From a phage, in the sequence record PX530564.1: a DNA stretch of 58,765 bases. One strand, given 5' to 3'. This document shows positions 21,815 to 55,205 of the stretch, one piece after another (within the stretch, counting starts at the first letter, position 1; every line of letters begins with the position of its first letter). Under the pieces are notes generated by a model. That model was not told the DNA's origin. It did not search any database and saw nothing but the letters and a program-made list of their open reading frames with translations. The position numbers and the translations under genes are program-made.

Positions 21815-24800
21815 ATGGATAAGTACGATAAGAACGTACCAAGTGATTATGATGGTCTGTTCCAAAAGGCGGCTGATGCCAACGGGGTCTCTTATGACCT
21901 TTTACGTAAAGTCGCTTGGACAGAATCACGATTCCAACCAACAGCTAAATCTAAGACTGGACCCTTAGGTATGATGCAGTTCACCAAGGCAACCGCCAAG
22001 GCAATGGGATTGCGCGTTACCGATGGTCCAGACGATGACCGACTGAACCCTGAGTTGGCTATCAACGCTGCCGCTAAGCACCTTGCAGGTCTGGTTGGTA
22101 AGTTTGATGGCGATGAACTTAAAGCTGCCCTTGCGTATAACCAAGGTGAGGGACGCTTGGGTAATCCACAACTTGAGGCATACTCTAAGGGTGACTTCTC
22201 GGCTATCTCCGAGGAGGGACGAAACTACCTACGTAATCTTCTGGATGTTGCCAAGTCTCCTATGGCTGGACAGTTGGAAGCATTCGGTGGTATCACCCCA
22301 AAGGGTAAAGGCATTCCGGCTGAGGTAGGACTTGCTGGTATTGGACATAAGCAGAAGGTTACACAGGACCTTCCTGAGTCCACAAGTTTCGACGTTAAGG
22401 GTATCGAACAGGAGGCTCCGGCGAAACCATTCGCCAAGGACTTTTGGGAGACCCACGGAGAAACGCTTGACGAGCACAACAACCGTTCAACCTTCTTCGG
22501 ATTCAAAGACGCTGCCGAAGCTGAACTCTCCAACTCAGTCGCTGGGATGGCTTTCCGTGCTGGTCGTCTTGATAACGGTTTTGACGTGTTTAAAGACACC
22601 ATTACGCCGACTCGCTGGAACTCTCACATCTGGACTCCAGAAGAGTTAGAGAAGATTCGAACCGAGGTTAAGAACCCTGCGTACATCAACGTGGTGACTG
22701 GTGGTTCTCCTGAGAATCTTGATGACCTCATTAAGTTAGCCAACGAGAACTTTGAGGCTGACTCACGCGCTGCTGAGGCTGGTCTGGGTGCTAAGCTGAG
22801 TGCTGGTGTTATTGGTGCTGGCGTAGACCCACTGAGCTATGTTCCGATGGTTGGTGTCACAGGTAAAGGCTTTAAGCTAATCAATAAGGCACTCGTTGTT
22901 GGCGCTGAGAGTGCAGCACTTAACGTTGCTTCCGAGGGACTTCGAACCTCAGTCGCTGGAGGTGACTCCGACTATGCTGGTGCTGCCTTAGGTGGCTTTG
23001 TGTTCGGTGCTGGTATGTCTGCAATCAGTGACGCTATCGCTGCTGGACTCAAACGTGGTAAACCAGAAGCCGAGTTCGACAATGAGTTCATTGGCCCTAT
23101 GATGCGAATGGAAGCCCGTGAGACAGCGCGTAACGCTAACTCTACTGACCTTTCTCGGATGAACACAGAAAACATGAAGTTTGAAGGTGAGCACAACGGT
23201 GTGCCCTATGAAGACCTTCCTGCTGAGAAGGGTGCTGTGGTACTCCATGACGGTTCTGTGATTAGCGCAAGTAACCCAATCAACCCTAAGACACTCAAAG
23301 AGTTCTCTGAGGTTGACCCTGAGAAGGCTGCGTGGGGCGTTAAACTGGCAGGGTTCACTGAGATTGGCTTGAAGACCTTAGGGTCTGACGATGCCAATAT
23401 TCGCAGGATAGCGATTGACCTTGTTCGTTCTCCTACTGGGATGCAATCGGGTGCCTCAGGTAAGTTTGGAGCTACTGCATCTGACATCCACGAGAGACTC
23501 CACAGTACCGACCAGAGAACCTACAACGACCTGTACAAAGCAATGTCAGACGCTATGAAAGACCCTGAGTTCTCTACAGGTGGCTCTAAGATGTCACGAG
23601 AAGAGGCTCGTTACACTATCTACCGTAGAGCGGCATTGGCTATTGAGCGTCCAGAACTACAGAAGGTTCTCACTCCGTCTGAGCGTATAGTAATGGACAT
23701 CATTAAGCGCCACTTTGACACTAAGCGTGAACTCATGGAGAATCCAGCAATCTTCGGTAATACGAAGGCTGTAAGCATCTTCCCTGAGAGTCGCCATAAA
23801 GGAACCTACGTCCCGCACGTTTACGACCGTCACGCCAAGGCTCTGATGATTCAACGGTACGGTGCCGAAGGGTTACAGGAAGGTATTGCCCGTTCTTGGT
23901 TGAACAGCTATGCCTCCCGCCCTGAGGTCAAAGCGCGTGTTGATGAGATGCTCAAGGAAGTTCATGGGGTAAAGGAAGTTACGCCGGAGATGGTTGAGAA
24001 GTACGCTATGGACAAGGCATACGGTATCTCTCATTCAGACCAGTTCACTAACAGTTCTGTGATTGAAGAGAACATTGAGGGCCTAGTAGGTATTGAGAAC
24101 AACTCGTTCCTTGAAGCTCGTAACTTGTTTGACTCTGACTTATCTATCACGATGCCTGATGGACAACAGTTTGCCGTGAATGACCTAAGGGACTTCGACA
24201 TGTTCCGCATCATGCCTGCATATGACCGCCGTATCAATGGAGACATTGCTATCATGGGGTCTACCGGTAAAACCACTCAGGAACTTAAGGACGAGATTCT
24301 AGCACTCAAAGCAAGTGCTGAGGGTAACGGTAAGAAGACTGGCGAGGTTCATGCTCTTATGGATACCGTTAAGATTCTCACCGGACGTGCTCGACGTAAT
24401 CACGACACAGTTTGGGAAACCTCGCTGCGTTCTATCAATGACTTAGGGTTCTTCGCTAAGAACGCCTATATGGGTGCTCAGAACCTTACTGAGATTGCTG
24501 GGATGATTGCTACTGGTAACGTCCGTGCTCTCGGTCACGGTATTCCGATTCTTCGTGATACTCTCTATAAGTCTAAACCAGTTTCCGCTAAGGAACTCAA
24601 GGAACTCCATGCGTCTCTGTTCGGGAAGGAAGTGGACCAGTTGATTCGACCTAAACGTGCTGACATTGTTCAGCGATTAAGGGAGGCAACTGATACAGGA
24701 CCGATGGTTGCGAACATCGTAGGGACCTTGAAGTATTCCACACAGGAATTGGCTGCTCGTTCTCCGTGGACGAAGATGCTTAATGGGACCACTAACTATC

Positions 24801-25771
24801 TTCTTGATGCTGCCCGTCAAGGTATGCTTGGGGATGTGATTAGTGCCACCCTATCTGGTAAGACTACTCGCTGGGAGAAGGAAGGATTCCTCCGTGGTGC
24901 ATCGGTAACGCCTGAACAGATGAAAGGAATCAAGGCGCTCATCAAGGAACACATGGTTCGCGGTGAGGATGGTAAGTACACTGTCAAGGATAAGCAAGCG
25001 TTCTCTATGGACCCTAGGGCTATGGACCTGTGGCGACTGGCTGATAAGGTTGCAGATGAGGCTATGCTACGTCCACATAAGGTGTCCTTACAGGATTCCC
25101 ATGCTTTTGGTGCGCTTGGTAAGATGGTAATGCAGTTCAAATCGTTTACCATCAAGTCGCTGAACTCTAAGTTCATCAAGCTCTTCTATGATGGCTACAA
25201 GAATAGCCGTGCGGTTGATGCTGCCTTGACAGGTATCATCTCCATGGGGCTTGCTGGTGGCTACTATGCGATGGCTGCACACGTCAAAGCATATGGAATG
25301 CCTAAGGAGAAACGTAAGGAGTACTTAGAGCGAGCACTGGACCCAACCATGATTGCTCACGCTTCCTTGTCTCGTAGTTCTCAATTGGGTGCACCTTTAG
25401 CTATGGCTGACCTTATTGGTGGTGCGTTCGGTGTAGAATCTTCTAAGATGGCTCGTTCCACGATTCTACCTAAGGATACCATGAAGAAACGAGACCCTAA
25501 CAAGCCTTACACCTCGTGGGAGGTAATGGGTGCTATGGGTTCAAACCTTCTGGAGCAGATGCCTTCGGCTGGCTTTGTGGCTAACGTTGGTGCTACCCTA
25601 CTGAACACTGCTGGTGTGGTTAATGCTCCCAACAAGGCTACCGAGCAGGACTTCATGACTGGCTTGATGAACTCTACAAAAGAGTTAGTTCCTAACGACC
25701 CTTTGACTCAACAGCTTGTGTTGAAGATTTATGAGGCCAATGGTGTCAATTTGAAGGAGCGTCGGAAATAA
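21815..25771 (+). CDS. 16: gene 16 internal core protein D with N-terminal lytic transglycosylase domain (1318 aa)
   Basis: ORF track; N-terminal ..ESRFQPTAKSKTGPLGMMQFT.. SLT-like motif. Confidence 0.92.
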   Translation: MDKYDKNVPSDYDGLFQKAADANGVSYDLLRKVAWTESRFQPTAKSKTGPLGMMQFTKATAKAMGLRVTDGPDDDRLNPELAINAAAKHLAGLVGKFDGDELKAALAYNQGEGRLGNPQLEAYSKGDFSAISEEGRNYLRNLLDVAKSPMAGQLEAFGGITPKGKGIPAEVGLAGIGHKQKVTQDLPESTSFDVKGIEQEAPAKPFAKDFWETHGETLDEHNNRSTFFGFKDAAEAELSNSVAGMAFRAGRLDNGFDVFKDTITPTRWNSHIWTPEELEKIRTEVKNPAYINVVTGGSPENLDDLIKLANENFEADSRAAEAGLGAKLSAGVIGAGVDPLSYVPMVGVTGKGFKLINKALVVGAESAALNVASEGLRTSVAGGDSDYAGAALGGFVFGAGMSAISDAIAAGLKRGKPEAEFDNEFIGPMMRMEARETARNANSTDLSRMNTENMKFEGEHNGVPYEDLPAEKGAVVLHDGSVISASNPINPKTLKEFSEVDPEKAAWGVKLAGFTEIGLKTLGSDDANIRRIAIDLVRSPTGMQSGASGKFGATASDIHERLHSTDQRTYNDLYKAMSDAMKDPEFSTGGSKMSREEARYTIYRRAALAIERPELQKVLTPSERIVMDIIKRHFDTKRELMENPAIFGNTKAVSIFPESRHKGTYVPHVYDRHAKALMIQRYGAEGLQEGIARSWLNSYASRPEVKARVDEMLKEVHGVKEVTPEMVEKYAMDKAYGISHSDQFTNSSVIEENIEGLVGIENNSFLEARNLFDSDLSITMPDGQQFAVNDLRDFDMFRIMPAYDRRINGDIAIMGSTGKTTQELKDEILALKASAEGNGKKTGEVHALMDTVKILTGRARRNHDTVWETSLRSINDLGFFAKNAYMGAQNLTEIAGMIATGNVRALGHGIPILRDTLYKSKPVSAKELKELHASLFGKEVDQLIRPKRADIVQRLREATDTGPMVANIVGTLKYSTQELAARSPWTKMLNGTTNYLLDAARQGMLGDVISATLSGKTTRWEKEGFLRGASVTPEQMKGIKALIKEHMVRGEDGKYTVKDKQAFSMDPRAMDLWRLADKVADEAMLRPHKVSLQDSHAFGALGKMVMQFKSFTIKSLNSKFIKLFYDGYKNSRAVDAALTGIISMGLAGGYYAMAAHVKAYGMPKEKRKEYLERALDPTMIAHASLSRSSQLGAPLAMADLIGGAFGVESSKMARSTILPKDTMKKRDPNKPYTSWEVMGAMGSNLLEQMPSAGFVANVGATLLNTAGVVNAPNKATEQDFMTGLMNSTKELVPNDPLTQQLVLKIYEANGVNLKERRK

Positions 25772-25791
25772 TACGACTCACTATAGGGAGA
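25769..25791 (+). promoter_or_regulatory. T7 RNAP class III promoter phi17-like
   Basis: TAATACGACTCACTATAGGGAGA overlapping gene 16 stop. Confidence 0.9.
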
Positions 25792-25841: not shown

Positions 25842-27518
25842 ATGGCTAACGTAATTAAGACCGTTTTGACTTACCCGCTGGATGGCTCTACGCGTGATTT
25901 TAATATTCCGTTTGAGTATCTAGCCCGTAAGTTCGTAGTGGTAACTCTTATTGGCGTAGACCGTAAGGTCCTTACGATTAATACAGACTATCGCTTTGCT
26001 ACACGCACTACCATCTCTCTGACCAAGGCTTGGGGTACAGCCGATGGTTATACGACCATTGAGTTGCGTCGAGTAACCTCCACTACAGACCGCTTGGTTG
26101 ACTTTACGGATGGCTCAATCCTCCGTGCTTATGACCTTAACGTGGCCCAGATTCAGACGATGCATGTAGCGGAAGAGGCCCGTGACCTAACTGCGGATAC
26201 CATTGGTGTCAATAATGATGGTCACTTGGACGCCCGTGGTCGCCGTATCGTGAACCTAGCGAACGCCGTGGATGACCGTGACGCTGTTCCGTTTGGTCAA
26301 CTTAAGACCATGAACCAGAACTCGTGGCAAGCGCGTAATGAAGCCTTACAGTTCCGCAATGAGGCTGAGACTTTCCGTAACCAAGCGGAGGGCTTTAAGA
26401 ACGAGTCCAGCACTAACGCTTCGAATACCAATCAGTGGCGTAATGAGGCTAAGGGGTTCCGAGATGAGGCCGAACAGTTTAAGAACACTGCGACACAACA
26501 GGCTACCGCTGCTAGTGGCTCTGCGACGGCTGCTCACCAATCTGAGGTGAACGCTGCGAACTCTGCAAAAGAATCTGCTAACTCTGCTACTTTGGCAGAA
26601 CAACAAGCAGACCGTGCGGAACGTGAAGCTGACAAGCTGGGTAACTGGAATGCACTTGCAGGTGCCGTTGATAAAGTAGTGGGCGTAGATGTGTACTTTA
26701 AAGGGGTTCTCTTTTGCCGTCAAGGAGTACAGGTATTATCCTCTACCGTTCAAGGGGACCTATATCGCTCCGGTCTTTGGAGAGATACTGCTGGCAACCT
26801 TTTCTACGACTATGTACTTGAGCGTGGAACAGGTACAGGACGTGCGTTTTCAACTTTAGTCTATGAAGCTAGTGGGAATAATTACACCAAGTTTGACAGC
26901 AGAACATACCATGTAAGGGACATCCAGACTGGCTGGAGCGGAGCCAGGTCTTACGCAGACCAGTGGAATGAGAGTGCCCCATTGTGGGGTACGGTTCCAG
27001 ATGGTGCCCGTAACGAGTACTTTCCTCTTATTAAACAGCGTTCCTATCAATCCGGAATAGACGCCAAAGCATGGCATCAAGGTATTCTAGTGCAAGGTGA
27101 CGGTAAGAACGTGTGGAACATCGTGTTTACAGATGAGGGCGGTAACGTTAGAGTGTGGACATTCGACGGAGATGGTAGCTTTTGGTCTCCTATGGATATC
27201 AATGCCTCGCGGCAGGTGATCTCTGGCTCTTTCAGAACACATGGTGGCGGTACGCTCAACGGTGAAGGTCGTGTATACGGCTCTGCATACGATGGTGGCT
27301 ACCTTGACGACTGGGTTCGAAGACATTTCATAGGGGATGTCTACCTAGGACCTCACGTGTGGAACCAGTACGGTGGAGGCTATCACGACATTATAGCGCC
27401 ATCTGGACATGTCCAAACAGGCACAACCGTTAATAATGGGGGTGTTGCTGGTATCTTTGTAAGACCAGTATGGCTTGGTTTCCATAACGGCACAAAAAGA
27501 ATCATTGCGTCACAGTAA
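25842..27518 (+). CDS. 17: gene 17 tail fibre (558 aa): conserved N-terminal module plus a C-terminal receptor-binding module unlike T7 and unlike block E
   Basis: ORF track; N-terminus MANVIKTVLTYPLDGSTRDFNIPFEYLARKF..; diverges from the block-E fibre after ..FKG (about aa 285). Confidence 0.9.
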   Translation: MANVIKTVLTYPLDGSTRDFNIPFEYLARKFVVVTLIGVDRKVLTINTDYRFATRTTISLTKAWGTADGYTTIELRRVTSTTDRLVDFTDGSILRAYDLNVAQIQTMHVAEEARDLTADTIGVNNDGHLDARGRRIVNLANAVDDRDAVPFGQLKTMNQNSWQARNEALQFRNEAETFRNQAEGFKNESSTNASNTNQWRNEAKGFRDEAEQFKNTATQQATAASGSATAAHQSEVNAANSAKESANSATLAEQQADRAEREADKLGNWNALAGAVDKVVGVDVYFKGVLFCRQGVQVLSSTVQGDLYRSGLWRDTAGNLFYDYVLERGTGTGRAFSTLVYEASGNNYTKFDSRTYHVRDIQTGWSGARSYADQWNESAPLWGTVPDGARNEYFPLIKQRSYQSGIDAKAWHQGILVQGDGKNVWNIVFTDEGGNVRVWTFDGDGSFWSPMDINASRQVISGSFRTHGGGTLNGEGRVYGSAYDGGYLDDWVRRHFIGDVYLGPHVWNQYGGGYHDIIAPSGHVQTGTTVNNGGVAGIFVRPVWLGFHNGTKRIIASQ

Positions 27519-27527
27519 GGAGGGACA

Positions 27528-27905
27528 ATGAGAGTATTTACTAACTGGAAGTGGACCGAAGGGTTTTACTTTGGAAAACCAATCTATGAGATTCGTGACC
27601 ACAATAACGTTGATTGGTATACCTTGATGGACGAACTAGATGAGCGCCAAGAAACATGGGTGGTAGGTATTGGACCTAACGGCGACGTTATGTGGTTTAC
27701 TGATGGACCAGTGTCTGGACTGTATGTACCTGTAGAGGGAGGGACTGTTGTTGTAACTGATTCTTTTGAGTTCTCGACTAACTGGAGAGGGTGCACATGG
27801 GATGGAAAGACGTTCCATGCACCAGAAGAAGTCCAGAAGCGAACTAAGGAGGACATTGAGCAGGACTTGCTGAAACTAATGGCTGAGTTGAAGGGTCTGG
27901 AATAA
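27528..27905 (+). CDS. hypothetical protein (125 aa) downstream of tail fibre; candidate tail-fibre assembly chaperone or cargo gene
   Basis: ORF track; AAGGAGGG RBS 7 nt upstream of ATG; Trp- and acidic-rich; absent at the equivalent position in block E. Confidence 0.5.
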   Translation: MRVFTNWKWTEGFYFGKPIYEIRDHNNVDWYTLMDELDERQETWVVGIGPNGDVMWFTDGPVSGLYVPVEGGTVVVTDSFEFSTNWRGCTWDGKTFHAPEEVQKRTKEDIEQDLLKLMAELKGLE

Positions 27906-27925: not shown

Positions 27926-27943
27926 TAGTCCACGGATGGACTA
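27926..27943 (+). promoter_or_regulatory. conserved stem-loop upstream of holin gene 17.5
   Basis: Perfect 7-bp inverted repeat TAGTCCA-CGGA-TGGACTA; related hairpins at 55223..55236 and 58075..58088. Confidence 0.35.
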
Positions 27944-27961
27944 TTTGAGGGAGGACGCTAC

Positions 27962-28009
27962 ATGTTGTCTTTAGATTTTAACAACGAGTTAGTCAAGGCT
28001 ACCTAAAGT
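27962..28009 (+). pseudogene. 17.5: 5' fragment of gene 17.5 (holin), 13 codons, truncated at junction with terminal-repeat sequence
   Basis: ATG 27962, MLSLDFNNELVKA matches the start of the intact holin at 55254, then runs into repeat sequence and stops at TAA 28007-28009. Confidence 0.6.
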
Positions 28010-28167
28010 TCCCCCATAGGGGTACCTAAAGCCCAGCCAATCACCTAAAGTCAACCTTCGGTTGACCTTGAGGGTTCCCTAGGGTTGGGATGACCCTTTG
28101 GTTTACCTTTGAGTGTCTCCTTGTCCCTATCTGTTCAGTCTCCTAAAGTCACCTCCTAAAGTCCATC
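28001..28167 (+). repeat. terminal-repeat-homologous sequence, entered about 15 bp inside the repeat
   Basis: CCTAAAGTTCCCCCATAGGGGTACCTAAAGCCCAGCC.. matches the T7-type terminal repeat; the same repeat type begins TCTCACAGTGTACGG at 58687. Confidence 0.65.
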
Positions 28168-28300
28168 ATCAAGCCAACGCCTAAAGAATACCCTTAAAGA
28201 CCCATCAAGTCAATCCCTATCTTAAAGATATTCTAAAGACCATACCTAAAGACCATACCTAAAGATGCCTTGTTGTTACCTATAAAGAGATTATCTTTAA
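28168..28300 (+). repeat. left-end array of short CCTAAAG / CTTAAAG direct repeats
   Basis: More than 8 copies of the heptamer at irregular spacing, as in T7 left-end short repeats. Confidence 0.5.
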
Positions 28301-28310
28301 CCATTGTCTT

Positions 28311-28333
28311 TAATACAACTCACTATAAGGAGA
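28311..28333 (+). promoter_or_regulatory. T7 RNAP promoter phiOL-like
   Basis: TAATACAACTCACTATAAGGAGA near the genome left end. Confidence 0.7.
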
Positions 28334-28383
28334 CTACTTAAAGGCCTTAAAGAGATTAATCAAAATAATTTAAAAAAGAGTAT

Positions 28384-28412
28384 TGACTTAAGGAGTCCTA
28401 GGGGTTACTATT
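28384..28412 (+). promoter_or_regulatory. sigma70-type early promoter A1-like
   Basis: AAAAAGAGTATTGACTTAAGG.. with -35 TTGACT and -10-like TACTAT at 17-bp spacing. Confidence 0.6.
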
Positions 28413-28509
28413 CATCTCGTCAACGGGACAACGGCCTAAAAGCCACTCCCTGAGATACCGGGGTCAACCGGATAAGTAGACAGCCTGTAAGTCGCACGAA
28501 AAACAGGCA

Positions 28510-28538
28510 TTGACAACACGCAGTAACATGCAGTAAGA
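28510..28538 (+). promoter_or_regulatory. sigma70-type early promoter A2-like
   Basis: TTGACAACACGCAGTAACATGCAGTAAGATAC. Confidence 0.6.
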
Positions 28539-28616
28539 TACACAGCGTCAACACGGTAGCACGGTGTCTTCTAGGTGACTTAAGCGCACCACGGCACATA
28601 AGGTGAAACAAAACGG

Positions 28617-28645
28617 TTGACAACATGCAGTAAACACGGTACGAT
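28617..28645 (+). promoter_or_regulatory. sigma70-type early promoter A3-like
   Basis: TTGACAACATGCAGTAAACACGGTACGATGTACC. Confidence 0.6.
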
Positions 28646-28763
28646 GTACCACAAGCAGTAAGGGTGTAGGGATAGGAACCGAGAAACCTGCCCGCGACCC
28701 GCCACGGATAAGGCACTAGCTATGAGTCGAATTCGGTCACTCATCGCATAAAAGAATAACAGG

Positions 28764-28792
28764 TTGACAGCCTCCTTTAAAAGCTGTAAGAT
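28764..28792 (+). promoter_or_regulatory. additional sigma70-like promoter inside a 137-bp block shared with 40531..40667
   Basis: TTGACAGCCTCCTTTAAAAGCTGTAAGATGTACC (-35 TTGACA, -10 TAAGAT). Confidence 0.45.
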
Positions 28793-29070
28793 GTACCACA
28801 GAAAGACACCGAGTGTCGTAGGTGTAAAAACGCGACATAGTGGATAGATGCCGAAAGCACAAGCGACCACGATAATAAAGAGCTTGTCGGAAATGTAACG
28901 CAAGTGACGGCTAACACTGAAACAGCCTCGGCTCGACGAAACTGTAGCTTAAAGTTCTTTAACAATTTGGTAAATAGCTCTTGGGTGCACGAATAGCGGA
29001 TAACTCAAGGGTATCGCAAGGTGCCCTTTATGATATCCACTAACATTCACATACAATGAGGTAACACAAG

Positions 29071-29421
29071 ATGGCTATGTCTAACATGACTTATAACAAC
29101 GTTTTCGACCACGCTTACGAAATGCTGAAAGAAAACATCCGTTATGATGACATCCGTGACACTGATGACCTGCACGATGCAGTACACATGGCAGCCGATA
29201 GCGCCGTTCCGCACTATTACAGCGACATTTTCAGCGTAATGGCAAGCGAGGGCATTGACCTTGAGTTCGAAGACTCTGGTCTGATGCCGGACACCAAGGA
29301 CGTAATCCGTATCCTGCAAGCACGTATCTATGAGCAACTCACAATCGACCTTTGGGAAGACGCTGAGGACTTACTGAACGAGTATCTTGAGGAAGTCGAA
29401 GCAGAAGAGGATGAAGAGTAA
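29071..29421 (+). CDS. ocr: gene 0.3 Ocr, DNA-mimic anti-restriction protein (116 aa)
   Basis: ORF track; [36 protein letters not shown].. with acidic C-terminus. Confidence 0.93.
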
Positions 29422-29576
29422 TGGCCAACAACACCACGCAATATGGTCTGACCGCTCAAACTGTACTGTTTTATAGTGACATGGTGCGCTGTGGATTTGA
29501 TTGGTCGCTCGCAATGGAACACCTTAAGGAACTGTATGAAAACAACAAGGCAATAGCCTTGGAGTCTGCTGAGTGA
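29421..29576 (+). CDS. 0.4: gene 0.4 protein (51 aa)
   Basis: ATG 29421 overlapping ocr stop, TGA 29574-29576. Confidence 0.65.
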   Translation: MANNTTQYGLTAQTVLFYSDMVRCGFDWSLAMEHLKELYENNKAIALESAE

Positions 29577-29625
29577 TAAACTCAAGGTCGCTCCTAGCGA
29601 GTGGCCTTTCATGATTATCACTTTA
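29577..29625 (+). promoter_or_regulatory. RNase III processing hairpin (R0.5-like)
   Basis: AACTCAAGGTCGCTCCTAGCGAGTGGCCTTTCATGATTATCAC. Confidence 0.4.
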
Positions 29626-29643
29626 CTTACGGGAGTAATGTAT

Positions 29644-29769
29644 ATGCTTACTATCGGTCTACTCACCGCTCTGGGTCTAGCTGTAGGCGCATCCTTTGGG
29701 AAGTCTTTGGGCGTAGCTGTAGGCTCTTACTTGGTCGCTTGTATCATCACGGGAGCACTGCGCAAATGA
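29644..29769 (+). CDS. 0.5: gene 0.5 small membrane protein (41 aa)
   Basis: ATG 29644, MLTIGLLTALGLAVGASFGKSLGVAVGSYLVACIITGALRK. Confidence 0.6.
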   Translation: MLTIGLLTALGLAVGASFGKSLGVAVGSYLVACIITGALRK

Positions 29770-29906
29770 TGAAACATTACGTTATGCCTATCCACACCAA
29801 GAACGGTGCTACAGTTTGCACACCTGATGGCTTCGCAATGAAACAACGCATTGAGCGCCTTAAGCGCGAACTGCGCATCAACCGCAAGCGTCTTCAACTA
29901 GGCTGA
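29766..29906 (+). CDS. 0.6: gene 0.6-like protein (46 aa)
   Basis: ATG 29766 overlapping 0.5 stop; MMKHYVMPIHTKNGATVCTPDGFAMKQRIERLKRELRINRKRLQLG. Confidence 0.55.
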   Translation: MMKHYVMPIHTKNGATVCTPDGFAMKQRIERLKRELRINRKRLQLG

Positions 29907-29931
29907 AATTCTTGTAACTAAAGGCAACTGT

Positions 29932-30386
29932 ATGCTTAATTGCTCCAAAACGTGTATAGCATGTGGTGAGATGAAACCACTGAATATGTACTCGAAAAAT
30001 GCAGCATCGCGAGATGGTCACATCGGTACGTGTAAGAAATGCAAGGCAAAGCAACAAAGGGAACGAAGAGCCAAGGCAAAGGCTTCTGGTGCGCCAACTG
30101 AGAAGGCAATCAAGGATGCCAAGCGTAGACGAAACAATCACCTGAAAATTAGTTACGGTATCGACGAATCAGTGTACAAAAAGATGTACGAAGAACAACA
30201 CGGCGTCTGCGCCATATGTAAACAACCTGAAAGCATTGAGGGTAGGCGACTATGTGTTGACCATTCGCACATGACAGGAGACGTAAGGGTCTTCTGTGCT
30301 CAAACTGCAACAGAGGAATAGGCCTTCTTAAAGACTCACCTGAACTATTACGCAACGCTTTCTATTATTTAACTGGTAAACTCTAA
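29932..30386 (+). pseudogene. Endonuclease VII-type (His-Cys box) homing-endonuclease-like gene with apparent 1-nt frameshift
   Basis: ORF 29932..30321 carries CAICKQP..LCVDHSHMTGDVR; the motif continues in the +1 frame (GLLCSNCNRGIGLLKDSPELLRNAFYYL) to TAA 30384-30386; break is in the G-run at 30287-30289. Confidence 0.7.
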
Positions 30387-30399
30387 AGGACACACTGTA

Positions 30400-31479
30400 A
30401 TGAACATTACCGACATCATGAACGCTATCGACGCAATCAAAGCACTGCCAATCTGTGAACTTGATAAGCGTCAAAGTATGCTCATTGATTTGCTGGTCGA
30501 GATGGTCAACAACGAAACGTGTGACGGTGAAATCACCAAGCTGGACAAGCCGCTTGAATATCAGGACTGGTGGACTACCTTAAGGTGCCTGACTACTGAC
30601 GCTGGCTTCACGATGCTCGGTAATGGTCACTTCTCCGCTGCATATAGTCACCCACTGCTGCCTAACAGAGTGATTAAGGTGGGCTTTAAGAAAGAGGATT
30701 CAGGCGCTGCGTATATCGCATTCTGCCGCATGTATCAGGGTCGCGCTGGTATCCCTAACGTCTACGATGTTCAACGCCATGCAGGCTGCTATACGGTGGT
30801 TCTTGATGCCCTGAATGAATGTGAGCGAGACGATAACTATGAGCACGACAAATACGCTGAGATTGCAAGCGACATCATTGACTGCAACTCTGATATGCAC
30901 GATTGGCGTGGCGGATGGGTTGGGGAGTTCGTCGAAACTTGCAAACTAATCCGCAAGTTCTTTGAGGGCATCGCTTCGTTCGACATGCACAGCGGGAACA
31001 TCATGTTCGACGATAATGACGTACCGTACATTACCGACCCTGTGTCATTCTCACAGAAGAAAGATGGTGGCGTGTTCAGCATGGACCCTGAGGAACTCAT
31101 CAAGGAAGTCGAGGAAGTCGCACGACAGAAAGAAATTGACCGCGCCAAGGAACGTAAAGAACGCCATGAGGGACGATTACAAGCGCGTAGAGTCAAACGC
31201 ATTAATCGCAAGGCACGTAAGGCACACCGCGCTAAGCGTGAAAGGATGCTTGCTGCGTGGCGCATGGCTGAGCGTCACGAACGGCGTAACCATGAGGTAG
31301 CTGTAGATGTGCTAGGAAGAACCAATAACGCTATGCTCTGGGCGCACATGTTCGCTGGGGACTTTAAGGCGCTTGAGGAACGAATCGCAGCGCACTGGTT
31401 CCAAGCTGACCGCATGGCTATAGCTAATGGTCTTCCACTAAACATTGATAAGAAACTTGACGCAATGCTAATGGGATGA
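30400..31479 (+). CDS. 0.7: gene 0.7 protein kinase / host transcription shut-off protein (359 aa)
   Basis: ORF track; [25 protein letters not shown].. full length as T7 gp0.7. Confidence 0.9.
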
Positions 31480-31549
31480 TAGTCTTATCTTACAGGTCAT
31501 CTGCGGGTGGCCTGAAATAGATACGATTACTGACCGAAAGAGGTACAAA

Positions 31550-34201
31550 ATGAGCACGATTAACATCGCTAAGAACGATTTCTCTGACATCGAACTGGCT
31601 GCTATCCCGTTCAACACTCTGGCTGACCACTATGGTGAGCGTCTAGCTCGCGAACAGTTGGCCCTTGAGCATGAGTCTTACGAGATGGGCGAGGCACGTT
31701 TCCGCAAGATGTTTGAGCGTCAACTCAAGGCCGGTGAGGTTGCAGACAATGCGGCTGCTAAGCCACTGATTACTACTCTACTGCCCAAGATGGTTACACG
31801 CATCAACGACTGGTTTGAGGAAGTGAAAGCTAAGCGTGGCAAACGTCCAACCGCTTTCCAGTTCCTGCAAGGAATCAAGCCGGAAGCCGTAGCGTATATC
31901 ACCATTAAGACTACTCTTGCTTGCCTAACGAGCGTAGACAATACAACCGTTCAGGCTGTAGCAAGCGCCATCGGACGGGCTATCGAGGAAGAGGCTCGCT
32001 TCGGTCGAATCCGTGACCTAGAAGCTAAGCACTTCAAGAAAAACGTTGAGGAACAACTAAACAAGCGCGTAGGGCACGTCTATAAGAAAGCATTCATGCA
32101 AGTAGTAGAGGCCGATATGCTCTCTAAGGGTCTACTCGGTGGCGAGGCGTGGTCTACATGGCACAAGGAAGATTCCATTCACGTAGGTGTGCGCTGCATT
32201 GAGATGCTCATTGAGTCCACCGGAATGGTTAGCTTGCACCGCCAAAATGCTGGCGTAGTGGGCCAAGACTCTGAGACTATCGAGCTGGCACACGAATACG
32301 CTGAGGCTATCGCAACACGGGCTGGGGCACTGGCGGGTATCTCTCCGATGTATCAGCCTTGCATAGTACCGCCTAAACCTTGGACCGGTGTAACTGGTGG
32401 TGGATACTGGGCCAACGGTCGCCGTCCACTGGTACTGGTGCGTACCCACAGCAAGAAGGCACTGATGCGCTACGAAGATGTTTACATGCCTGAGGTATAC
32501 AAGGCGATCAACATTGCGCAAAACACCGCTTGGAAAATCAACAAGAAAGTCCTAGCGGTCGCCAACGTAATCACCAAGTGGAAGCACTGCCCGGTCGAGG
32601 ACATCCCAGCGATTGAACGTGAAGAACTCCCGATGAAACCGGAAGACATCGACACGAATCCTGAGGCTCTCACTGCATGGAAACGTGCCGCTGCCGCTGT
32701 GTACCGTAAAGACAAGGCTCGCAAGTCTCGCCGCATAAGCCTTGAGTTCATGCTTGAGCAAGCCAATAAGTTCGCTAACCATAAGGCCATCTGGTTCCCT
32801 TACAACATGGACTGGCGCGGTCGTGTTTACGCTGTGTCAATGTTCAACCCGCAAGGTAACGACATGACCAAGGGACTGCTGACACTGGCTAAGGGTAAAC
32901 CAATCGGTAAAGAAGGTTACTACTGGCTGAAAATCCACGGTGCAAACTGTGCGGGTGTCGATAAGGTTCCGTTCCCTGAGCGCATCAAGTTCATTGAGGA
33001 CAACCACGAGAACATCATGGCTTGCGCTAAGTCTCCTCTGGAGAACACTTGGTGGGCTGAGCAAGATTCTCCGTTCTGCTTCCTTGCGTTCTGCTTTGAG
33101 TACGCTGGGGTACAACACCACGGCCTTAGCTACAACTGCTCTCTTCCGCTGGCGTTCGATGGGTCTTGCTCTGGTATTCAGCACTTCTCCGCGATGCTCC
33201 TTGATGAGATAGGTGGTCGTGCGGTTAACCTGCTGCCTAGTGAAACCGTTCAGGACATCTACGGGATTGTCGCTAAGAAAGTCAACGTGATTCTGCAAGA
33301 AGACGTAATCAACGGGACCGACAACGAAGTAGTTACCGTGACTGATGAGAACACTGGCGAAATCTCTGAGAAAGTTAAGCTGGGCACCAAGGCATTGGCT
33401 GGTCAGTGGTTGGCTTACGGTGTTACTCGCAGCGTGACTAAGCGTTCAGTCATGACGCTGGCTTACGGGTCCAAAGAGTTCGGCTTCCGTCAACAAGTGC
33501 TGGAAGATACCATTCAGCCAGCTATTGATTCCGGTAAAGGTCTGATGTTCACTCAACCGAATCAGGCCGCTGGATACATGGCGAAACTGATTTGGGAAGC
33601 TGTGAGCGTCACGGTGGTAGCTGCGGTTGAAGCAATGAACTGGCTTAAGTCTGCCGCTAAGCTGCTGGCTGCTGAGGTCAAAGATAAGAAGACTGGAGAG
33701 ATTCTTCGCAAGCGTTGCGCTGTGCATTGGGTAACTCCTGATGGGTTCCCAGTGTGGCAGGAATACAAGAAGCCAATTCAGACTCGCTTGAACCTGATGT
33801 TCCTCGGTCAGTTCCGCTTACAGCCGACCATTAACACCAACAAAGACAGCGAGATTGATGCACACAAACAGGAGTCCGGTATTGCTCCTAACTTTGTACA
33901 CAGCCAAGATGGTAGCCACCTGCGTAAGACTGTAGTGTGGGCGCATGAGAAGTACGGAATCGAATCATTTGCGTTGATTCACGACTCCTTCGGGACCATT
34001 CCGGCTGACGCTGCCAACCTGTTCAAAGCTGTTCGCGAAACTATGGTTGACACCTATGAGTCTTGCGATGTACTGGCTGACTTCTATGAGCAGTTCGCTG
34101 ACCAGTTACATGAGTCTCAATTGGATAAAATGCCAGCACTTCCGGCTAAAGGTAACTTGAATCTCCAAGACATCCTTAAGTCAGACTTCGCGTTCGCGTA
34201 A
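31550..34201 (+). CDS. 1: gene 1 single-subunit DNA-dependent RNA polymerase (883 aa)
   Basis: ORF track; near-identical to T7 RNAP (MSTINIAKNDFSDIELAAIPFNTLADHYGERLAREQ.. ..DFAFA). Confidence 0.98.
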   Translation: MSTINIAKNDFSDIELAAIPFNTLADHYGERLAREQLALEHESYEMGEARFRKMFERQLKAGEVADNAAAKPLITTLLPKMVTRINDWFEEVKAKRGKRPTAFQFLQGIKPEAVAYITIKTTLACLTSVDNTTVQAVASAIGRAIEEEARFGRIRDLEAKHFKKNVEEQLNKRVGHVYKKAFMQVVEADMLSKGLLGGEAWSTWHKEDSIHVGVRCIEMLIESTGMVSLHRQNAGVVGQDSETIELAHEYAEAIATRAGALAGISPMYQPCIVPPKPWTGVTGGGYWANGRRPLVLVRTHSKKALMRYEDVYMPEVYKAINIAQNTAWKINKKVLAVANVITKWKHCPVEDIPAIEREELPMKPEDIDTNPEALTAWKRAAAAVYRKDKARKSRRISLEFMLEQANKFANHKAIWFPYNMDWRGRVYAVSMFNPQGNDMTKGLLTLAKGKPIGKEGYYWLKIHGANCAGVDKVPFPERIKFIEDNHENIMACAKSPLENTWWAEQDSPFCFLAFCFEYAGVQHHGLSYNCSLPLAFDGSCSGIQHFSAMLLDEIGGRAVNLLPSETVQDIYGIVAKKVNVILQEDVINGTDNEVVTVTDENTGEISEKVKLGTKALAGQWLAYGVTRSVTKRSVMTLAYGSKEFGFRQQVLEDTIQPAIDSGKGLMFTQPNQAAGYMAKLIWEAVSVTVVAAVEAMNWLKSAAKLLAAEVKDKKTGEILRKRCAVHWVTPDGFPVWQEYKKPIQTRLNLMFLGQFRLQPTINTNKDSEIDAHKQESGIAPNFVHSQDGSHLRKTVVWAHEKYGIESFALIHDSFGTIPADAANLFKAVRETMVDTYESCDVLADFYEQFADQLHESQLDKMPALPAKGNLNLQDILKSDFAFA

Positions 34202-34209
34202 CGTCAAAT

Positions 34210-34232
34210 TAATACGACTCACTATAGAGGGG
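34210..34232 (+). promoter_or_regulatory. T7 RNAP promoter phi1.1A-like
   Basis: TAATACGACTCACTATAGAGGGA immediately after gene 1. Confidence 0.85.
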
Positions 34233-34233
34233 A

Positions 34234-34275
34234 CAAACTCAAGGTCATTCGCAAGAGTGGCCTTTATGATTGACC
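34234..34275 (+). promoter_or_regulatory. RNase III processing hairpin (R1.1-like)
   Basis: CAAACTCAAGGTCATTCGCAAGAGTGGCCTTTATGATTGACC. Confidence 0.45.
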
Positions 34276-34298
34276 TTCTTCCGGTTAATACGACTCAC
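34276..34298 (+). promoter_or_regulatory. T7 RNAP promoter phi1.1B-like
   Basis: TAATACGACTCACTATAGGAGAA. Confidence 0.85.
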
Positions 34299-34386
34299 TA
34301 TAGGAGAACCTTAAGGTTTAACTTTAAGACCCTTAAGTGTTAATTAAAGATTTAAATTAAAGAATTACTAAGAGAGGACTTTAAGT
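34299..34386 (+). other. AT-rich tract downstream of phi1.1A/B; candidate primary origin of replication
   Basis: About 75% A+T (..TTTAACTTTAAGACCCTTAAGTGTTAATTAAAGATTTAAATTAAAGAATTAC..) at the position of the T7 primary origin. Confidence 0.4.
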
Positions 34387-34515
34387 ATGCGTAACTTCGA
34401 AAAGATGACCAAACGTTCTACCCGTAATGCTCATGACTTCGAGGCAACTAAAGGTCGCAAGTTGAATAAGACTAAGCGTGACCGTTCCCATAAGCGTAGC
34501 TGGGAGGGTCAGTAA
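34387..34515 (+). CDS. 1.1: gene 1.1 basic protein (42 aa)
   Basis: ATG 34387, MRNFEKMTKRSTRNAHDFEATKGRKLNKTKRDRSHKRSWEGQ. Confidence 0.7.
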   Translation: MRNFEKMTKRSTRNAHDFEATKGRKLNKTKRDRSHKRSWEGQ

Positions 34516-34516
34516 G

Positions 34517-34774
34517 ATGGGACGTTTATACAGTGGGAACTTGAATGACTTCAAGGATGCTTGCAACAGGCTCTACCAGTTAGACTTTGCTGTTATTTGT
34601 GATGAATGGCATGATGCTTACAAACGCCTTGCGTGTATACGTCTACGCGTAGAGGACAGGGCTGGAAATCTGATTGATACCAATACGTTCTGTCACCACG
34701 ATGAAGACGTCTTGTACAATACGTGTACTGACTGGCTGAACCGTATGTACGACCAGTTGAAGGACTGGAAGTAA
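34517..34774 (+). CDS. 1.2: gene 1.2 protein (85 aa; dGTPase inhibitor in T7)
   Basis: ATG 34517 inside ORF 34478..34774; MGRLYSGNLNDFKDACNRLYQLDFAVICDEWHDAYKR.. Confidence 0.85.
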   Translation: MGRLYSGNLNDFKDACNRLYQLDFAVICDEWHDAYKRLACIRLRVEDRAGNLIDTNTFCHHDEDVLYNTCTDWLNRMYDQLKDWK

Positions 34775-34794
34775 TACGACTCAGTATAGGGACA
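34772..34794 (+). promoter_or_regulatory. T7 RNAP promoter phi1.3-like
   Basis: TAATACGACTCAGTATAGGGACA overlapping 1.2 stop. Confidence 0.75.
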
Positions 34795-36285: not shown

Positions 36286-36292
36286 ACACATC

Positions 36293-53332: not shown

Positions 53333-55205
53333 ATGGCTAACGTAATTAAAACCGTTTTGACTTACCAGTTAGATGGCTCCACTCGTGATTTTAATATCCC
53401 GTTTGAGTATCTAGCCCGTAAGTTCGTAGTGGTAACTCTTATTGGTGTAGACCGCAAGGTCCTTACGATTAATACAGACTACCGTTTTGCTACTCGCACT
53501 ACTATCTCACTAACCAAGGCTTGGGGTCCAGCGGATGGATATACTACAATAGAGCTACGTCGAGTAACCTCCACGACCGACCGCTTGGTTGACTTTACGG
53601 ATGGCTCAATCCTCCGTGCGTATGACCTTAACGTCGCTCAGATTCAAACGATGCACGTAGCGGAAGAGGCCCGTGACTTAACTGCGGATACTATCGGTGT
53701 CAATAATGATGGTAACTTGGATGCTCGTGGTCGTCGAATTGTGAACCTAGCGAACGCTGTAGATGACCGTGACGCTGTTCCGTTTGGTCAACTTAAGGCT
53801 ATGAACCAGAACTCATGGCAGGCGCGTAATGAGGCCTTACAGTTCCGTAATGAGGCTGAGACTTTCAGAAATCAAGCGGAGGGCTTTAAGACCGAGTCTG
53901 GCACTAACGCTGCTAATACGAAGCAGTGGCGTGATGAGACCAAAGGTTTCCGAGACGAAGCTGAGCAGTTTAAGAATACTGCTGGTCAATATTCTACATC
54001 CGCTGGGAACTCTGCGACCGCAGCACACCAATCTGAGGTAAACGCTGAGAACTCCGCAACAGCCTCCGCTAACTCTGCCCAGTCAGCAGAACAGCAAGCA
54101 GACCGCGCTAAGGTGGAAGCAGACAAGTTGGGTAACTGGAATGCACTTGCAGGGGCAATTGATAGTGTTGACGGGAACAATGTCATGTTTAAAGGCGACA
54201 TTTAGAACACCTGCAAATATCGTAGGTGGTGGCTTAATCTCCAACGGTTCTGGTCATTTTGAGAAAGGCGTGGCTGTTAAGGGTGAATTAGATGTTGTAG
54301 GGGATGTTTCGGCGCATAAGGATGTGTGGGTAGATGGTGTAGTTGTAGCCAATGGTGGGATACAGCAACATTCAAATCCTAATACCCTTAATGAGGTGTG
54401 GAGGGTGTTTATTAAGGGGGTCCCACTCCATATTGGAAACCGACAAGGTCTTCATCTTGGTTGGAACGAGACCAGTAATGGCGAGTCGTGTTTTGTTACT
54501 AACAAAGGTGCAGGTGGTGGTGGTTTTGTTTTCCGCACGGTAAACTTTGAGAACACTGCTGAGATTGGTCGCGTTACATTCACTGGTAACGGTGGAGTAC
54601 GCGCCTTCGATTTACAAGCAATTAATGGTGCTCGTATTGAGGCTGGGAATAATATAGTTGGTGCGAGCATTTTCTCAGGAATGGGCGCCTGCCAGTTCAA
54701 TACCGAAGGTAACTTGCTGGGAGGTCTATGGAACAGAGTTGGAGGTGACCTATACAACTACCTGTGGAACAAGAGTCACTTTGCTAAGCCACCTGCTGGG
54801 GTTCAATTGTTTACAGGCCGTGGTGGGGACTACCTTGAGGGCCTTGTTGATACTACAGCTGTTGGGTTCCGCTGGTTCAATTCTGACAGAAGGCTTAAAG
54901 AAAACATAAAGGTTGTACGTTCCGCTGATGATATGCTTAAGATTATCCGCTCATACATCCCGGTTTCCTATAAGTATAAGGACTCTGAGTATGTTGATAA
55001 GCGTGGCAGAACGGTAAGCGTTACCGGTAAGAACTCTCGTGCTGGTTTCATTACTCAGGATTTGATTCGAATCTGGCCAGAGGCGGTGGACGTGCTATCC
55101 GATGGTATGCAATCCCCAGACCCTAACCAAATCATCGGTGGACTCATGCTTCTTGTCAAGAATCTTGATGAACGCGTACAGGAGTTGGAGAAAAATAACG
55201 TTTAA
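53333..55205 (+). pseudogene. 17: gene 17 tail fibre split by a 1-nt frameshift near 54200; C-terminal module carries an intramolecular-chaperone (endosialidase-chaperone-like) autocleavage domain
   Basis: ORFs 53333..54205 and 54141..55205; removing one T of the TTT at 54201-54203 joins ..NVMFKGDI to RTPANIVGGG..; C-terminal ..WFNSDRRLKENIKVV.. motif. Confidence 0.8.

What the first reader, a model, noticed from the sequence alone, without database searches (positions are those of the whole stretch)
26690..27518. Tail-fibre receptor-binding module in block A differs from both T7 and block E
The first ~285 residues of gp17 are near-identical to the block E fibre, but after ..DKLGNWNALAGA.D.V.G..V.FKG the C-terminal 270 residues are unrelated (Gly/Trp-rich, ..GTGTGRAFSTLVYEASGNNY.., ..GGGYHDIIAPSGHVQTG..). 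This is a modular tip swap and implies a different receptor or host range.
Basis: partly seen in the sequence, partly recalled or inferred. Interest (0 to 1): 0.55.

Follow-up and report, generated by a model that had tools for sequence, protein, structure and literature searches.

The report
T7-type tail fibre with Mu-like tip
The tail-fibre gene of this T7-like phage keeps the T7 front half but carries a different, rare rear half whose tip resembles the fibre tip of phage Mu, followed by a small Mu-like assembly-chaperone gene; related published phages already carry the same arrangement, so it is real but ordinary.

Summary
gp17 (25842..27518, 558 aa) is 90% identical to T7 gp17 and to the block E fibre over residues 1-288. 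Residues 289-558 are unrelated to both, apart from a 39-residue linker motif.

- The swapped part is two nested modules: a middle domain (289-470) and a linker plus tip (471-558). They have different closest relatives.
- The tip profile aligns with the tips of Mu S and of lambdoid and P2-like fibres (hhalign 97%).

The pair is not new. Serratia phage Pila has it at 90% nucleotide identity. N30, CQ615, AV103, Bas104 and others carry variants, and independent metagenome contigs carry it intact. A Mu-like Tfa behind a Teseptimavirus fibre was reported for Bas103.

I conclude this is a new member of a known kind. A receptor different from T7's is plausible but not shown. Interest is low to moderate.

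Separately, the window is a patchwork of T7-like blocks, and block A breaks off 13 codons into the holin gene.

The parts
25769..25791 (+). T7 class III promoter (phi17 equivalent) that drives gene 17 and the downstream chaperone gene
   Evidence: Perfect match to TAATACGACTCACTATAGGGAGA. No other T7 promoter match lies between here and 28311, so gene 17 and the 125-aa ORF are inferred to be co-transcribed.
25842..27518 (+). Gene 17, tail fibre protein, 558 aa (whole gene, stop codon included)
   Evidence: ORF. Pfam PF03906 Phage_T7_tail matches residues 1-162 at E 1.4e-71.
25842..26705 (+). Conserved T7-type part: tail-attachment domain (aa 1-162), coiled shaft and the ..DKLGNWN..VYFKG junction (aa 163-288)
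   Evidence: 90% identity to T7 gp17 and to the block E fibre.
26706..27251 (+). Middle domain (aa 289-470), module 1 of the swapped region
   Evidence: 93% identical to Pila, 55-56% to Koku and YSYH, 24-26% to N30, CQ615, AV103, C5 and Bas104. Its second half (YADQWN..APLW..EYFPLIKQR..) is shared with lambdoid and P2-like side tail fibres P0018, P0020 and P0021. No Pfam or PDB sequence match.
27252..27518 (+). Linker (GGYLDDWVRRHF) plus small distal tip (aa 471-558), module 2, a Mu S-type tip
   Evidence: Nucleotide identity to CQ615 rises from 44-48% to 70% and then 82-93% from about 27242 onward. hhalign of the tip profile against Mu S plus lambdoid and P2-like tips gives probability 97.3%, E 2e-11. 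The shared motif is D(I/Y)xAPSGHV(Q/I)TG...(V/I)RPV. The linker is the only stretch similar to T7 gp17, residues 442-480.
27517..27524 (+). Shine-Dalgarno sequence (AAGGAGGG) of the chaperone gene, overlapping the gene 17 stop codon
   Evidence: Read directly from the sequence.
27528..27905 (+). Short Mu-like tail fibre assembly protein (Tfa), 125 aa: N-terminal beta-rich domain (1 to about 104) and one conserved C-terminal helix (107-124)
27962..28000 (+). First 13 codons of holin gene 17.5. Block A ends here, and a T7-like genome left end follows from 28001.
   Evidence: Alignment to contigs L016 and L017 and to Pila stops matching after 28000. Position 28001 corresponds to position 1 of GenBank CQ615.

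Best explanation
**What it is.** Block A encodes a mosaic T7-type tail fibre. Residues 1-288 are the standard T7 tail-attachment domain and coiled shaft, so the fibre mounts on an ordinary T7-like tail. Residues 289-558 replace the T7 distal half with a region of the class used by Mu S, lambda Stf and P2 H-type fibres. That region has three pieces:
- a middle domain (289-470);
- a short linker helix (about 486-498);
- a roughly 60-residue tip ending ..RPVWLGFHNGTKRIIASQ.

**The extra gene.** This type of tip does not fold on its own, so the cassette brings its own gene (27528..27905) between genes 17 and 17.5. It has its own ribosome-binding site and is inferred to be transcribed from the same late promoter.

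**How it most likely works.** The 125-aa product is a short Mu-like tail fibre assembly protein.
- Its variable N-terminal domain grips the tip of nascent gp17 chains.
- Its conserved C-terminal helix brings three copies together.
- This sets the register for trimerisation of the fibre from the C-terminal end.

The distal region then binds a surface receptor different from the one T7 uses, most likely an LPS or O-antigen glycan.

**Shown here:** the domain boundaries, the mosaic pattern, the Tfa fold prediction, the tip homology and the tip-Tfa co-variation.

**Inferred:** chaperone activity, 3:3 stoichiometry, the nature of the receptor, and whether Tfa stays on the virion.
For: - **T7-type N-part.** Pfam PF03906 at E 1.4e-71. 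90% identity to T7 over residues 1-288.
- **Non-T7 C-part.**
  - No similarity to T7 beyond the linker.
  - No PDB sequence hit.
- **Tfa identification.**
  - AF2 mean pLDDT 90.2.
  - Foldseek hits to annotated phage Tfa proteins.
  - PHROG_136 'tail fiber assembly protein' at E 3.4e-5.
- **Tip homology.** hhalign probability 97.3% against Mu S plus lambdoid and P2-like tips, and 75% against Mu S alone.
- **Related fibres outside T7-like phages.** An exhaustive search found lambdoid (phage_tail_N) and P2-like (tail-collar) fibres sharing C-part positions of about 70-250 (gp17 residues about 350-535).
- **Mosaicism and linkage.**
  - Pila: middle 93%, tip 83%, Tfa 86%. N30, CQ615 and AV103: middle 24-25%, tip 78-84%, Tfa 92-94%.
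  - Tip-Tfa identity correlation is r 0.89-0.92, against 0.51 for the middle domain and 0.38 for the N-terminus.
  - The nucleotide breakpoint lies at about 27250-27340.
- **The same Tfa family sits behind fibre genes elsewhere.** It is found in 56 phage records. In T4-like Erwinia phage Cronus it occupies the gp38 position.
- **Tfa architecture.** Variable N-domain (33-45% identity among distant members) and conserved C-helix RTKEDIEQDLLKLMAEL (52-100%). This matches the scheme described for TfaMu and Pam3 gp25: a variable fibre-binding domain plus a conserved trimerising helix (PMC9608196).
- **The gene is real.** dN/dS 0.08-0.11.
- **The arrangement is real.** Pila and independent contigs L015-L021 show fibre, Tfa and holin in the same order.
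Against: - No structure could be obtained for the fibre C-part (AF2 pLDDT 31). The Mu-type tip fold therefore rests on sequence profiles only.
- The tip HMM against Mu S alone is weak (10.5 bits).
- The Tfa has no Pfam or NCBIfam match, including Caudo_TAP.
- Sequence-level hhalign of the Tfa to Mu U is only 50% probability.
- The Tfa is 50 residues shorter than Mu U and has one C-terminal helix where TfaMu is described with two (PMC9608196).
- Tip and Tfa are adjacent on the DNA, so physical linkage alone would produce part of their co-variation.
- No experiment links this fibre to a receptor.
Confidence: 0.8

Rival explanations
1. The 125-aa protein is mainly a virion-bound adhesin or cap. 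It would stay on the fibre tip and itself contact the receptor, as gp38 does in T2-type phages, instead of acting only as a transient folding chaperone.
For: - Mu Tfa is reported to remain on the mature fibre and to contribute to host recognition (PMC9608196 citing the TfaMu study).
- In T4-like Erwinia phage Cronus the homologue sits exactly in the gp38 position.
- The N-terminal domain is the variable part of the protein.
Against: - The protein is 92-94% identical among the window, N30, CQ615 and AV103, and 86% identical in Pila, although these were isolated on different hosts: several E. coli strains and Serratia. A primary specificity determinant would be expected to vary more.
- It is small and lacks the glycine-rich motifs typical of gp38 adhesins (that expectation is from my own knowledge).
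- The fold match is to a chaperone.
Confidence: 0.25
2. The unusual C-terminal half is an assembly artefact. The window is visibly chimeric, so the fibre could be a false join of a T7-like N-part to DNA from an unrelated phage.
For: The window is a patchwork of blocks with abrupt junctions, for example 28000/28001 inside the holin gene.
Against: - The same continuous ORF plus the downstream gene is present in the isolate Serratia phage Pila, at 90% nucleotide identity over all 2064 nt.
- It is also present in independent contigs from several samples, where an intact holin, gp18, Rz and gp19 follow.
- The C-part shows purifying selection against Pila (dN/dS 0.11).
- About 17 phage records carry variants of the C-part.
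Confidence: 0.02
3. The C-terminal region is an enzymatic tailspike-like domain (a depolymerase or an O-antigen-modifying enzyme), not a simple binding fibre.
For: - Many Autographiviridae target O-antigen or capsule using enzymatic receptor-binding proteins (PMC11990801).
- The middle domain (289-470) has no assigned function.
Against: - No Pfam, PHROG or PDB hit to any enzyme family.
- 270 residues is too short for a beta-helix depolymerase (from my own knowledge).
- All detectable homologues are fibre proteins.
- There is a dedicated Tfa, which is typical of slender fibres.
Confidence: 0.05

Closest known systems
Serratia phage Pila (MN098329) gp45 tail fibre and gp46 'hypothetical protein'
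   Same: Same gene pair in the same place, between gene 16 and the holin gene. 90.1% nucleotide identity over the whole 2064 nt. C-part 89.5% amino-acid identity, Tfa 86%. Block A as a whole is 95% identical to Pila.
   Different: The tip and Tfa of the window are closer to E. coli phages CQ615, N30 and AV103 (Tfa 92-94%) than to Pila. In Pila the second gene is unannotated, and the genome announcement does not mention the fibre.
Escherichia phage EmilieLinder (Bas103): Teseptimavirus fibre with a separate Mu-like Tfa (PMC11990801, S7 Fig)
   Same: [quoted passage not shown]
   Different: It belongs to a different subfamily. The Bas103 Tfa is 175 aa and annotated as a Tfa. BLASTP to the window Tfa gives only E 0.005 over 33 residues, and the fibre C-parts are essentially unrelated. 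Bas104, from the same study, carries a relative of the window-type short Tfa (47.6% identity) annotated 'hypothetical protein'.
Phage Mu tail fibre S with assembly protein U (PDB 5YVQ)
   Different: Mu is a myovirus, and its S protein has a different N-terminus. U is 175 aa with a longer helical C-terminal region. Sequence identity is only 14% for the Tfa and about 33-44% over the short tip alignment. There is no invertible G segment here.
T7 gp17 (NP_042005; distal part solved as PDB 4A0T, recalled from my own knowledge)
   Same: Residues 1-288 are 90% identical. The linker motif G..(W/Y)(G/D)G.(W/Y)LD.(Y/W)(L/V)R..F aligns window 475-513 to T7 442-480. That stretch joins the pyramid and tip domains in T7. 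The same promoter and the same gene position are used.
   Different: The T7 tip domain and most of the distal half are absent, and T7 has no gene between 17 and 17.5. A metagenomic fibre, P0017, combines the second half of a window-like middle domain with a T7-type tip. The linker therefore acts as an exchange point.
Block E fibre, identical to that of Escherichia phage 64795_ec1, with Bas102 a close relative: T7-type fibre with a C-terminal intramolecular chaperone
   Same: Same N-terminal 288 residues (90%) and the same junction motif. It is another solution to the same problem of folding a foreign distal fibre domain.
   Different: It uses a Peptidase_S74 intramolecular chaperone domain fused to the fibre instead of a separate Tfa gene. 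Its C-part is unrelated to that of block A.

Membership tests
T7 gp17 tail fibre family | N-terminal tail-attachment domain (Pfam PF03906 Phage_T7_tail) | tested here: met
   E 1.4e-71 over residues 1-162, covering the full profile.
T7 gp17 tail fibre family | T7-type distal pyramid and tip domains (gp17 residues about 371-553) | tested here: not met
   BLASTP shows only a 39-residue linker match (E 0.004). There is no PDB sequence hit, although the solved T7 distal fragment should be in that library (from my own knowledge). The tip HMM matches T7 only in the linker.
Tail fibre assembly protein (Tfa; Mu U, lambda Tfa, P2 G class) | Gene lies directly downstream of the fibre gene, on the same strand and in the same transcription unit | tested here: met
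   There is a 9-nt gap after the gene 17 stop codon, and the gene has its own Shine-Dalgarno sequence. No promoter match lies between the two genes. The arrangement is the same in 56 phage records.
Tail fibre assembly protein (Tfa; Mu U, lambda Tfa, P2 G class) | Fold of the TfaMu fibre-binding domain | tested here: met
Tail fibre assembly protein (Tfa; Mu U, lambda Tfa, P2 G class) | Sequence signature of the curated family (Pfam Caudo_TAP; accession PF02413 recalled from my own knowledge) | tested here: not met
   None of the 12 family members has a Pfam hit even at E up to 10, and there is no NCBIfam hit. The only support is a weak PHROG_136 match (E 3.4e-5) and hhalign at 50% probability to Mu U.
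Tail fibre assembly protein (Tfa; Mu U, lambda Tfa, P2 G class) | Conserved C-terminal helical region that trimerises | tested here: inconclusive
   One predicted helix (107-124) is the most conserved segment of the protein. It is shorter than in TfaMu. Oligomerisation cannot be tested with these tools.
Tail fibre assembly protein (Tfa; Mu U, lambda Tfa, P2 G class) | Binds the fibre tip and is needed for fibre trimerisation | not testable with these tools
   The only evidence is indirect: tip-Tfa identity correlation r 0.89-0.92. No multimer prediction was available.
Mu S / lambda Stf / P2 H-type distal fibre tip | Sequence homology of the C-terminal tip | tested here: met
   hhalign probability 97.3%, E 2e-11 over 70 columns against Mu S plus P0018, P0020 and P0021. 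Against Mu S alone: 75%, E 2.5e-5. HMM E-values of 3e-5 to 2e-3 against lambdoid and P2-like fibres.
Mu S / lambda Stf / P2 H-type distal fibre tip | Three-dimensional fold of the tip as seen in 5YVQ chain A | tested here: inconclusive
   The AF2 model of residues 284-558 failed (mean pLDDT 31, three-sequence alignment).
Fibres with a C-terminal intramolecular chaperone (Peptidase_S74) | Peptidase_S74 domain at the C-terminus | tested here: not met
   Absent from the block A fibre. Present in the block E fibre at E 1.6e-12.

The most novel reading that the evidence does not exclude
The tip of about 60-85 residues and the 125-aa minimal Tfa (one C-terminal helix, no Pfam model) together form a self-contained, horizontally mobile 'tip plus chaperone' cassette. 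It moves between podoviruses of the Studiervirinae and T4-like Straboviridae independently of the rest of the fibre. In this reading the Tfa stays on the virion as part of the receptor-binding tip. Host range would then be set jointly by three exchangeable pieces: the middle domain, the tip and the Tfa.
Probability: 0.3. Interest if true: 0.5.

Novelty: new member of a known kind. Interest (0 to 1): 0.3.

Why it matters
- **Host range and engineering.** Tail-fibre tips set host range, and T7-like phages are a favoured chassis for engineered host-range changes. This fibre type comes with a dedicated small chaperone gene. Anyone moving this receptor-binding module into T7 would probably have to move gene 27528..27905 with it, or the fibre would probably not fold.
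- **Annotation.** The short Tfa family is called 'hypothetical protein' in most of the records listed, and 'ssDNA-binding protein' for two phages. The fold match found here would allow it to be named correctly.
- **Limits.** The biological concept, modular fibre exchange with a Mu-like Tfa, is already established. This is a refinement, not a discovery.

Tried and rejected
- **Word-indexed protein searches.** Searches with the C-part alone and with a 13-sequence profile each returned only two partial hits, P0001 and P0002. Both share the tip only. Close relatives seem to be absent from that database.
- **Structure of the fibre C-part.** The permitted three-sequence alignment gave an unusable model (pLDDT 31), so no fold search was run on it.
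- **PDB sequence searches with the C-part.** The single-sequence search found nothing. The profile search found only GFP-family chains at E 0.13 or worse, which I treat as chance.
- **Curated family libraries for the 125-aa protein.** Pfam and NCBIfam gave no meaningful hit.
- **Direct HMM of the Tfa family against Mu U and U'.** Scores were insignificant. Only the fold comparison settled the assignment.
- **The 'T4-like' hit Escherichia phage ST2 (OM982647).** That record is itself a chimera containing T7-like pieces, so I discarded it.
- **Literature.** The Pila genome announcement says nothing about the fibre. A search for the N30 phage found nothing relevant.
- **Rejected ideas.** An assembly artefact and an enzymatic tailspike are covered under the rival explanations.

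Full report
**1. The observation**

The ORF 25842..27518 (+) encodes a 558-aa protein that carries the quoted peptide strings.
- Residues 1-288 are 90% identical to the N-part of the block E fibre (259/288) and to T7 gp17 (260/288).
- After the conserved ..DKLGNWNALAGA.D.V.G..V.(F/W)KG junction, similarity to both disappears.
  - The best local match to the block E C-part has E 0.85.
  - The only match to T7 is a 39-residue stretch, window 475-513 to T7 442-480 (E 0.004).
- In 100-nt windows, nucleotide identity to T7 is 88% at 26542-26641, 50% at 26642-26741 and 40% or lower after that. The stated start, 26690, is therefore accurate.
- The C-part is Gly- and Trp-rich: 15.2% G and 4.1% W, against 5.6% and 1.4% in the N-part.

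**2. The feature is larger than reported**

Nine bases after the gene 17 stop codon lies a 125-codon ORF (27528..27905) with its own AAGGAGGG ribosome-binding site.
- A perfect T7 class III promoter lies at 25769-25791. No promoter match lies between the two genes. I therefore infer that the ORF is expressed late, together with the fibre.
- The ORF is a real gene.
  - Its dN/dS against four relatives is 0.08-0.11.
  - tblastn finds it in 56 phage records, always next to a fibre gene.
- With a 12-sequence alignment, AlphaFold2 gave a confident model, mean pLDDT 90.2.
- Foldseek against viral models found, beyond the close family, several annotated tail fibre assembly proteins.
- Sequence methods barely detect the relationship:
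  - PHROG_136 'tail fiber assembly protein' at E 3.4e-5;
  - hhalign to Mu U at 50% probability;
  - nothing in Pfam or NCBIfam.

**3. The C-part is two modules, not one**

I aligned the fibre with 12 phage homologues, two metagenome contigs and two database proteins. The table gives percent identity to the window.

| Relative | Middle domain (289-470) | Linker + tip (471-558) | Tfa |
|---|---|---|---|
| Pila | 93 | 83 | 86 |
| N30, CQ615, AV103 | 24-25 | 78-84 | 92-94 |
| JB01, 04922B, C5, Bas104, UFV01 | 24-26 | 51-58 | 44-47 |
| Koku, YSYH | 55-56 | 47-48 | 42-43 |

- At the nucleotide level, identity to CQ615 is 34-48% across the middle domain (26742-27241). It rises to 70% at 27242-27341 and to 82-93% from 27342 on, through the Tfa gene. 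Identity to Pila falls to 75-87% over the same stretch.
- Over all pairs of 17 fibre-Tfa loci, Tfa identity correlates with tip identity at r 0.89-0.92. The correlation is 0.51 for the middle domain and 0.38 for the N-terminus. It remains 0.84 among pairs whose middle domains are under 35% identical.
- The caveat is that the tip and the Tfa gene are neighbours on the DNA, so linkage alone contributes to this correlation.
- P0001 and P0002 carry the same linker and tip on a quite different, shorter middle region.
- P0017 carries the second half of a window-like middle domain fused to a T7-type tip.

The linker (G..YD.GYLDDWVRRHF), which is the only stretch resembling T7 gp17, is therefore a recurrent exchange joint. 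From my own knowledge of the T7 gp17 crystal structure, T7 residues about 448-464 form the helix that joins the pyramid and tip domains. That fits this picture.

**4. What the distal part is related to**

An exhaustive phmmer search of the 275-residue C-part against 1.84 billion cluster representatives found only 16 hits at E 0.001 or better, and three at 1e-30 or better. The module is rare.
- Of the ten hits scanned against Pfam, six are T7-type fibres.
- Three are not: a lambdoid side tail fibre (phage_tail_N), a P2 H-like fibre (tail-collar N-terminus), and a protein made of Phage_fiber_2 repeats. They share C-part positions of about 70-250, which are gp17 residues about 350-535. This stretch includes the motifs ADQ(W/Y)N..AP(L/F) and EY(F/H)P(L/I)IKQR and the linker.
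- A profile of the last 92 residues aligns with the tips of Mu S plus these three fibres at hhalign probability 97.3% (E 2e-11, 70 columns). Against Mu S alone it gives 75%.
- The shared motifs are D(I/Y)xAPSGHV(Q/I)TG and (V/I)RPV, in register with the extreme C-termini.
- I could not confirm the fold. The only alignment the structure tool accepted had three sequences and gave pLDDT 31.

**5. Mechanism**

The published scheme for TfaMu and for Pam3 gp25 is a variable N-terminal domain that binds the fibre tip and a conserved C-terminal helical part that trimerises. This drives the registered folding of the fibre (PMC9608196).

The protein here shows the same pattern.
- Among distant members, the N-domain is 33-45% identical.
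- The C-terminal helix RTKEDIEQDLLKLMAEL is 52-100% identical and is the most conserved block.

I conclude, with confidence about 0.8, that block A encodes a T7-mounted fibre with a Mu, lambda or P2-class distal end, and that the end is folded with the help of a co-transferred short Tfa.

Two points remain open.
- **Whether the Tfa is released or retained.** TfaMu is reported to stay bound. In T4-like Erwinia phage Cronus the homologue occupies the gp38 position.
- **The receptor.** It is not known. Pila was isolated on Serratia marcescens. The Teseptimaviruses Bas102-104 depend on O16 O-antigen, and Bas104 carries a window-type Tfa. A surface glycan other than the rough LPS core that T7 uses is the most likely target, but this is inference.

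**6. Comparison with what is known, and novelty**

- The gene pair exists in isolates. Pila has it at 90.1% nucleotide identity over all 2064 nt. N30, CQ615, AV103, C5, JB01, 04922B, Bas104, UFV01, D226, P694, Koku and YSYH carry variants.
- Independent metagenome contigs carry fibre, Tfa, holin, gp18, Rz and gp19 intact, with the Tfa 99-100% identical. This rules out an assembly artefact for the fibre itself.
- The BASEL completion paper reports a Teseptimavirus fibre with a C-terminal intramolecular chaperone (Bas102, the block E type). It also reports one with a separate Mu-like Tfa (Bas103).
- The Bas103 Tfa is the long 175-aa kind and is only marginally similar to the one here.
- The window's fibre is therefore a new member of a known kind.
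- The modest additions are the fold-based naming of a short Tfa family that lacks a Pfam model, and the two-level mosaic with the tip and Tfa travelling together.

**7. Context**

The window is not one natural genome.
- Self-comparison shows five collinear T7-like blocks.
- Block A ends at 28000, 13 codons into holin gene 17.5. Base 28001 corresponds to position 1 of the GenBank record of CQ615.
- Block E is 100% identical to Escherichia phage 64795_ec1 over the fibre region. This includes a one-base insertion at 54204 that splits that fibre gene.

Noticed in passing
window 27962-28001: Block A stops 13 codons into holin gene 17.5. From 28001 the sequence is the left end of a T7-like genome: 'cctaaagttcccccatagggg' repeats, then the early promoters, ocr at 29071 and the RNA polymerase gene at 31550. 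Position 28001 corresponds to position 1 of GenBank CQ615. The two sides share essentially no sequence at the join (at most a few bases), so it does not look like a repeat-mediated join.
   Followed up: partly
window 1-58765 (blocks: 1-28000, 28001-40530, 40531-42757, 42771-48721, 48721-58765): The window is a patchwork. Genes 2.5 to 6 are present twice at 90-94% identity. A second copy of the early region (40531-42757, matching 28663-31228) sits inside gene 4. At 48721 the second series jumps from the gene 6 region to the gene 15/16 region and so skips the head and tail genes.
   Followed up: partly
window 53333-55205: The block E fibre is split into two ORFs (53333..54205 and 54141..55205) by one extra base at 54204, judged against the intact Bas102 gene. 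The stretch is 100% identical to GenBank KU927499 (phage 64795_ec1), where two 'tail fibers protein' CDS are annotated. Its C-end carries a Peptidase_S74 intramolecular chaperone domain. It is either a sequencing error in that record or a real pseudogene.
   Followed up: yes
window 49305-53111: gp16 of block E is 1268 aa, against 1318 aa in block A (21815..25771). KU927499 annotates a separate small 'ORF39' after it, which suggests a second frame disruption near the 3' end of gene 16 in that genome.
   Followed up: no
window 29932-30321: A 129-aa ORF in the early region of block B has CxxC and CVDHSH motifs. It looks like an HNH or endonuclease VII-type homing endonuclease. No family search was run on it.
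   Followed up: no
L026:4001-4393 (Erwinia phage Cronus, MH059636): A 130-aa homologue of the short Tfa (42.5% identity in tblastn) lies directly after the distal long-tail-fibre gene and before the holin gene, which is the gp38 position, in a T4-like phage. That fibre ends with the same ..R..W..Y.NG....I.AS motif. The tip-plus-Tfa pair therefore crosses phage families.
   Followed up: partly
GenBank records MZ428229 (Klebsiella phage vB_KpnP-VAC1) and MK542821 / NC_048164 (Escherichia phage HZP2): Homologues of the short Tfa are annotated 'ssDNA-binding protein' in these records, and 'hypothetical protein' in most of the others listed. These are probably misannotations.
   Followed up: no
L014 (GenBank OM982647, 'Escherichia phage ST2', 171 kb): This record is filed under Kagunavirus but carries T7-like fibre, Tfa, holin and terminase pieces next to unrelated genes. 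It appears to be a chimeric assembly.
   Followed up: no
window 27926-27945: A short inverted repeat (tagtcca cgga tggacta) lies in the spacer between the Tfa gene and the holin gene. It is largely conserved in Pila (one arm base differs) and unchanged in contigs L016 and L017. It could be an RNA hairpin. It was not analysed.
   Followed up: no
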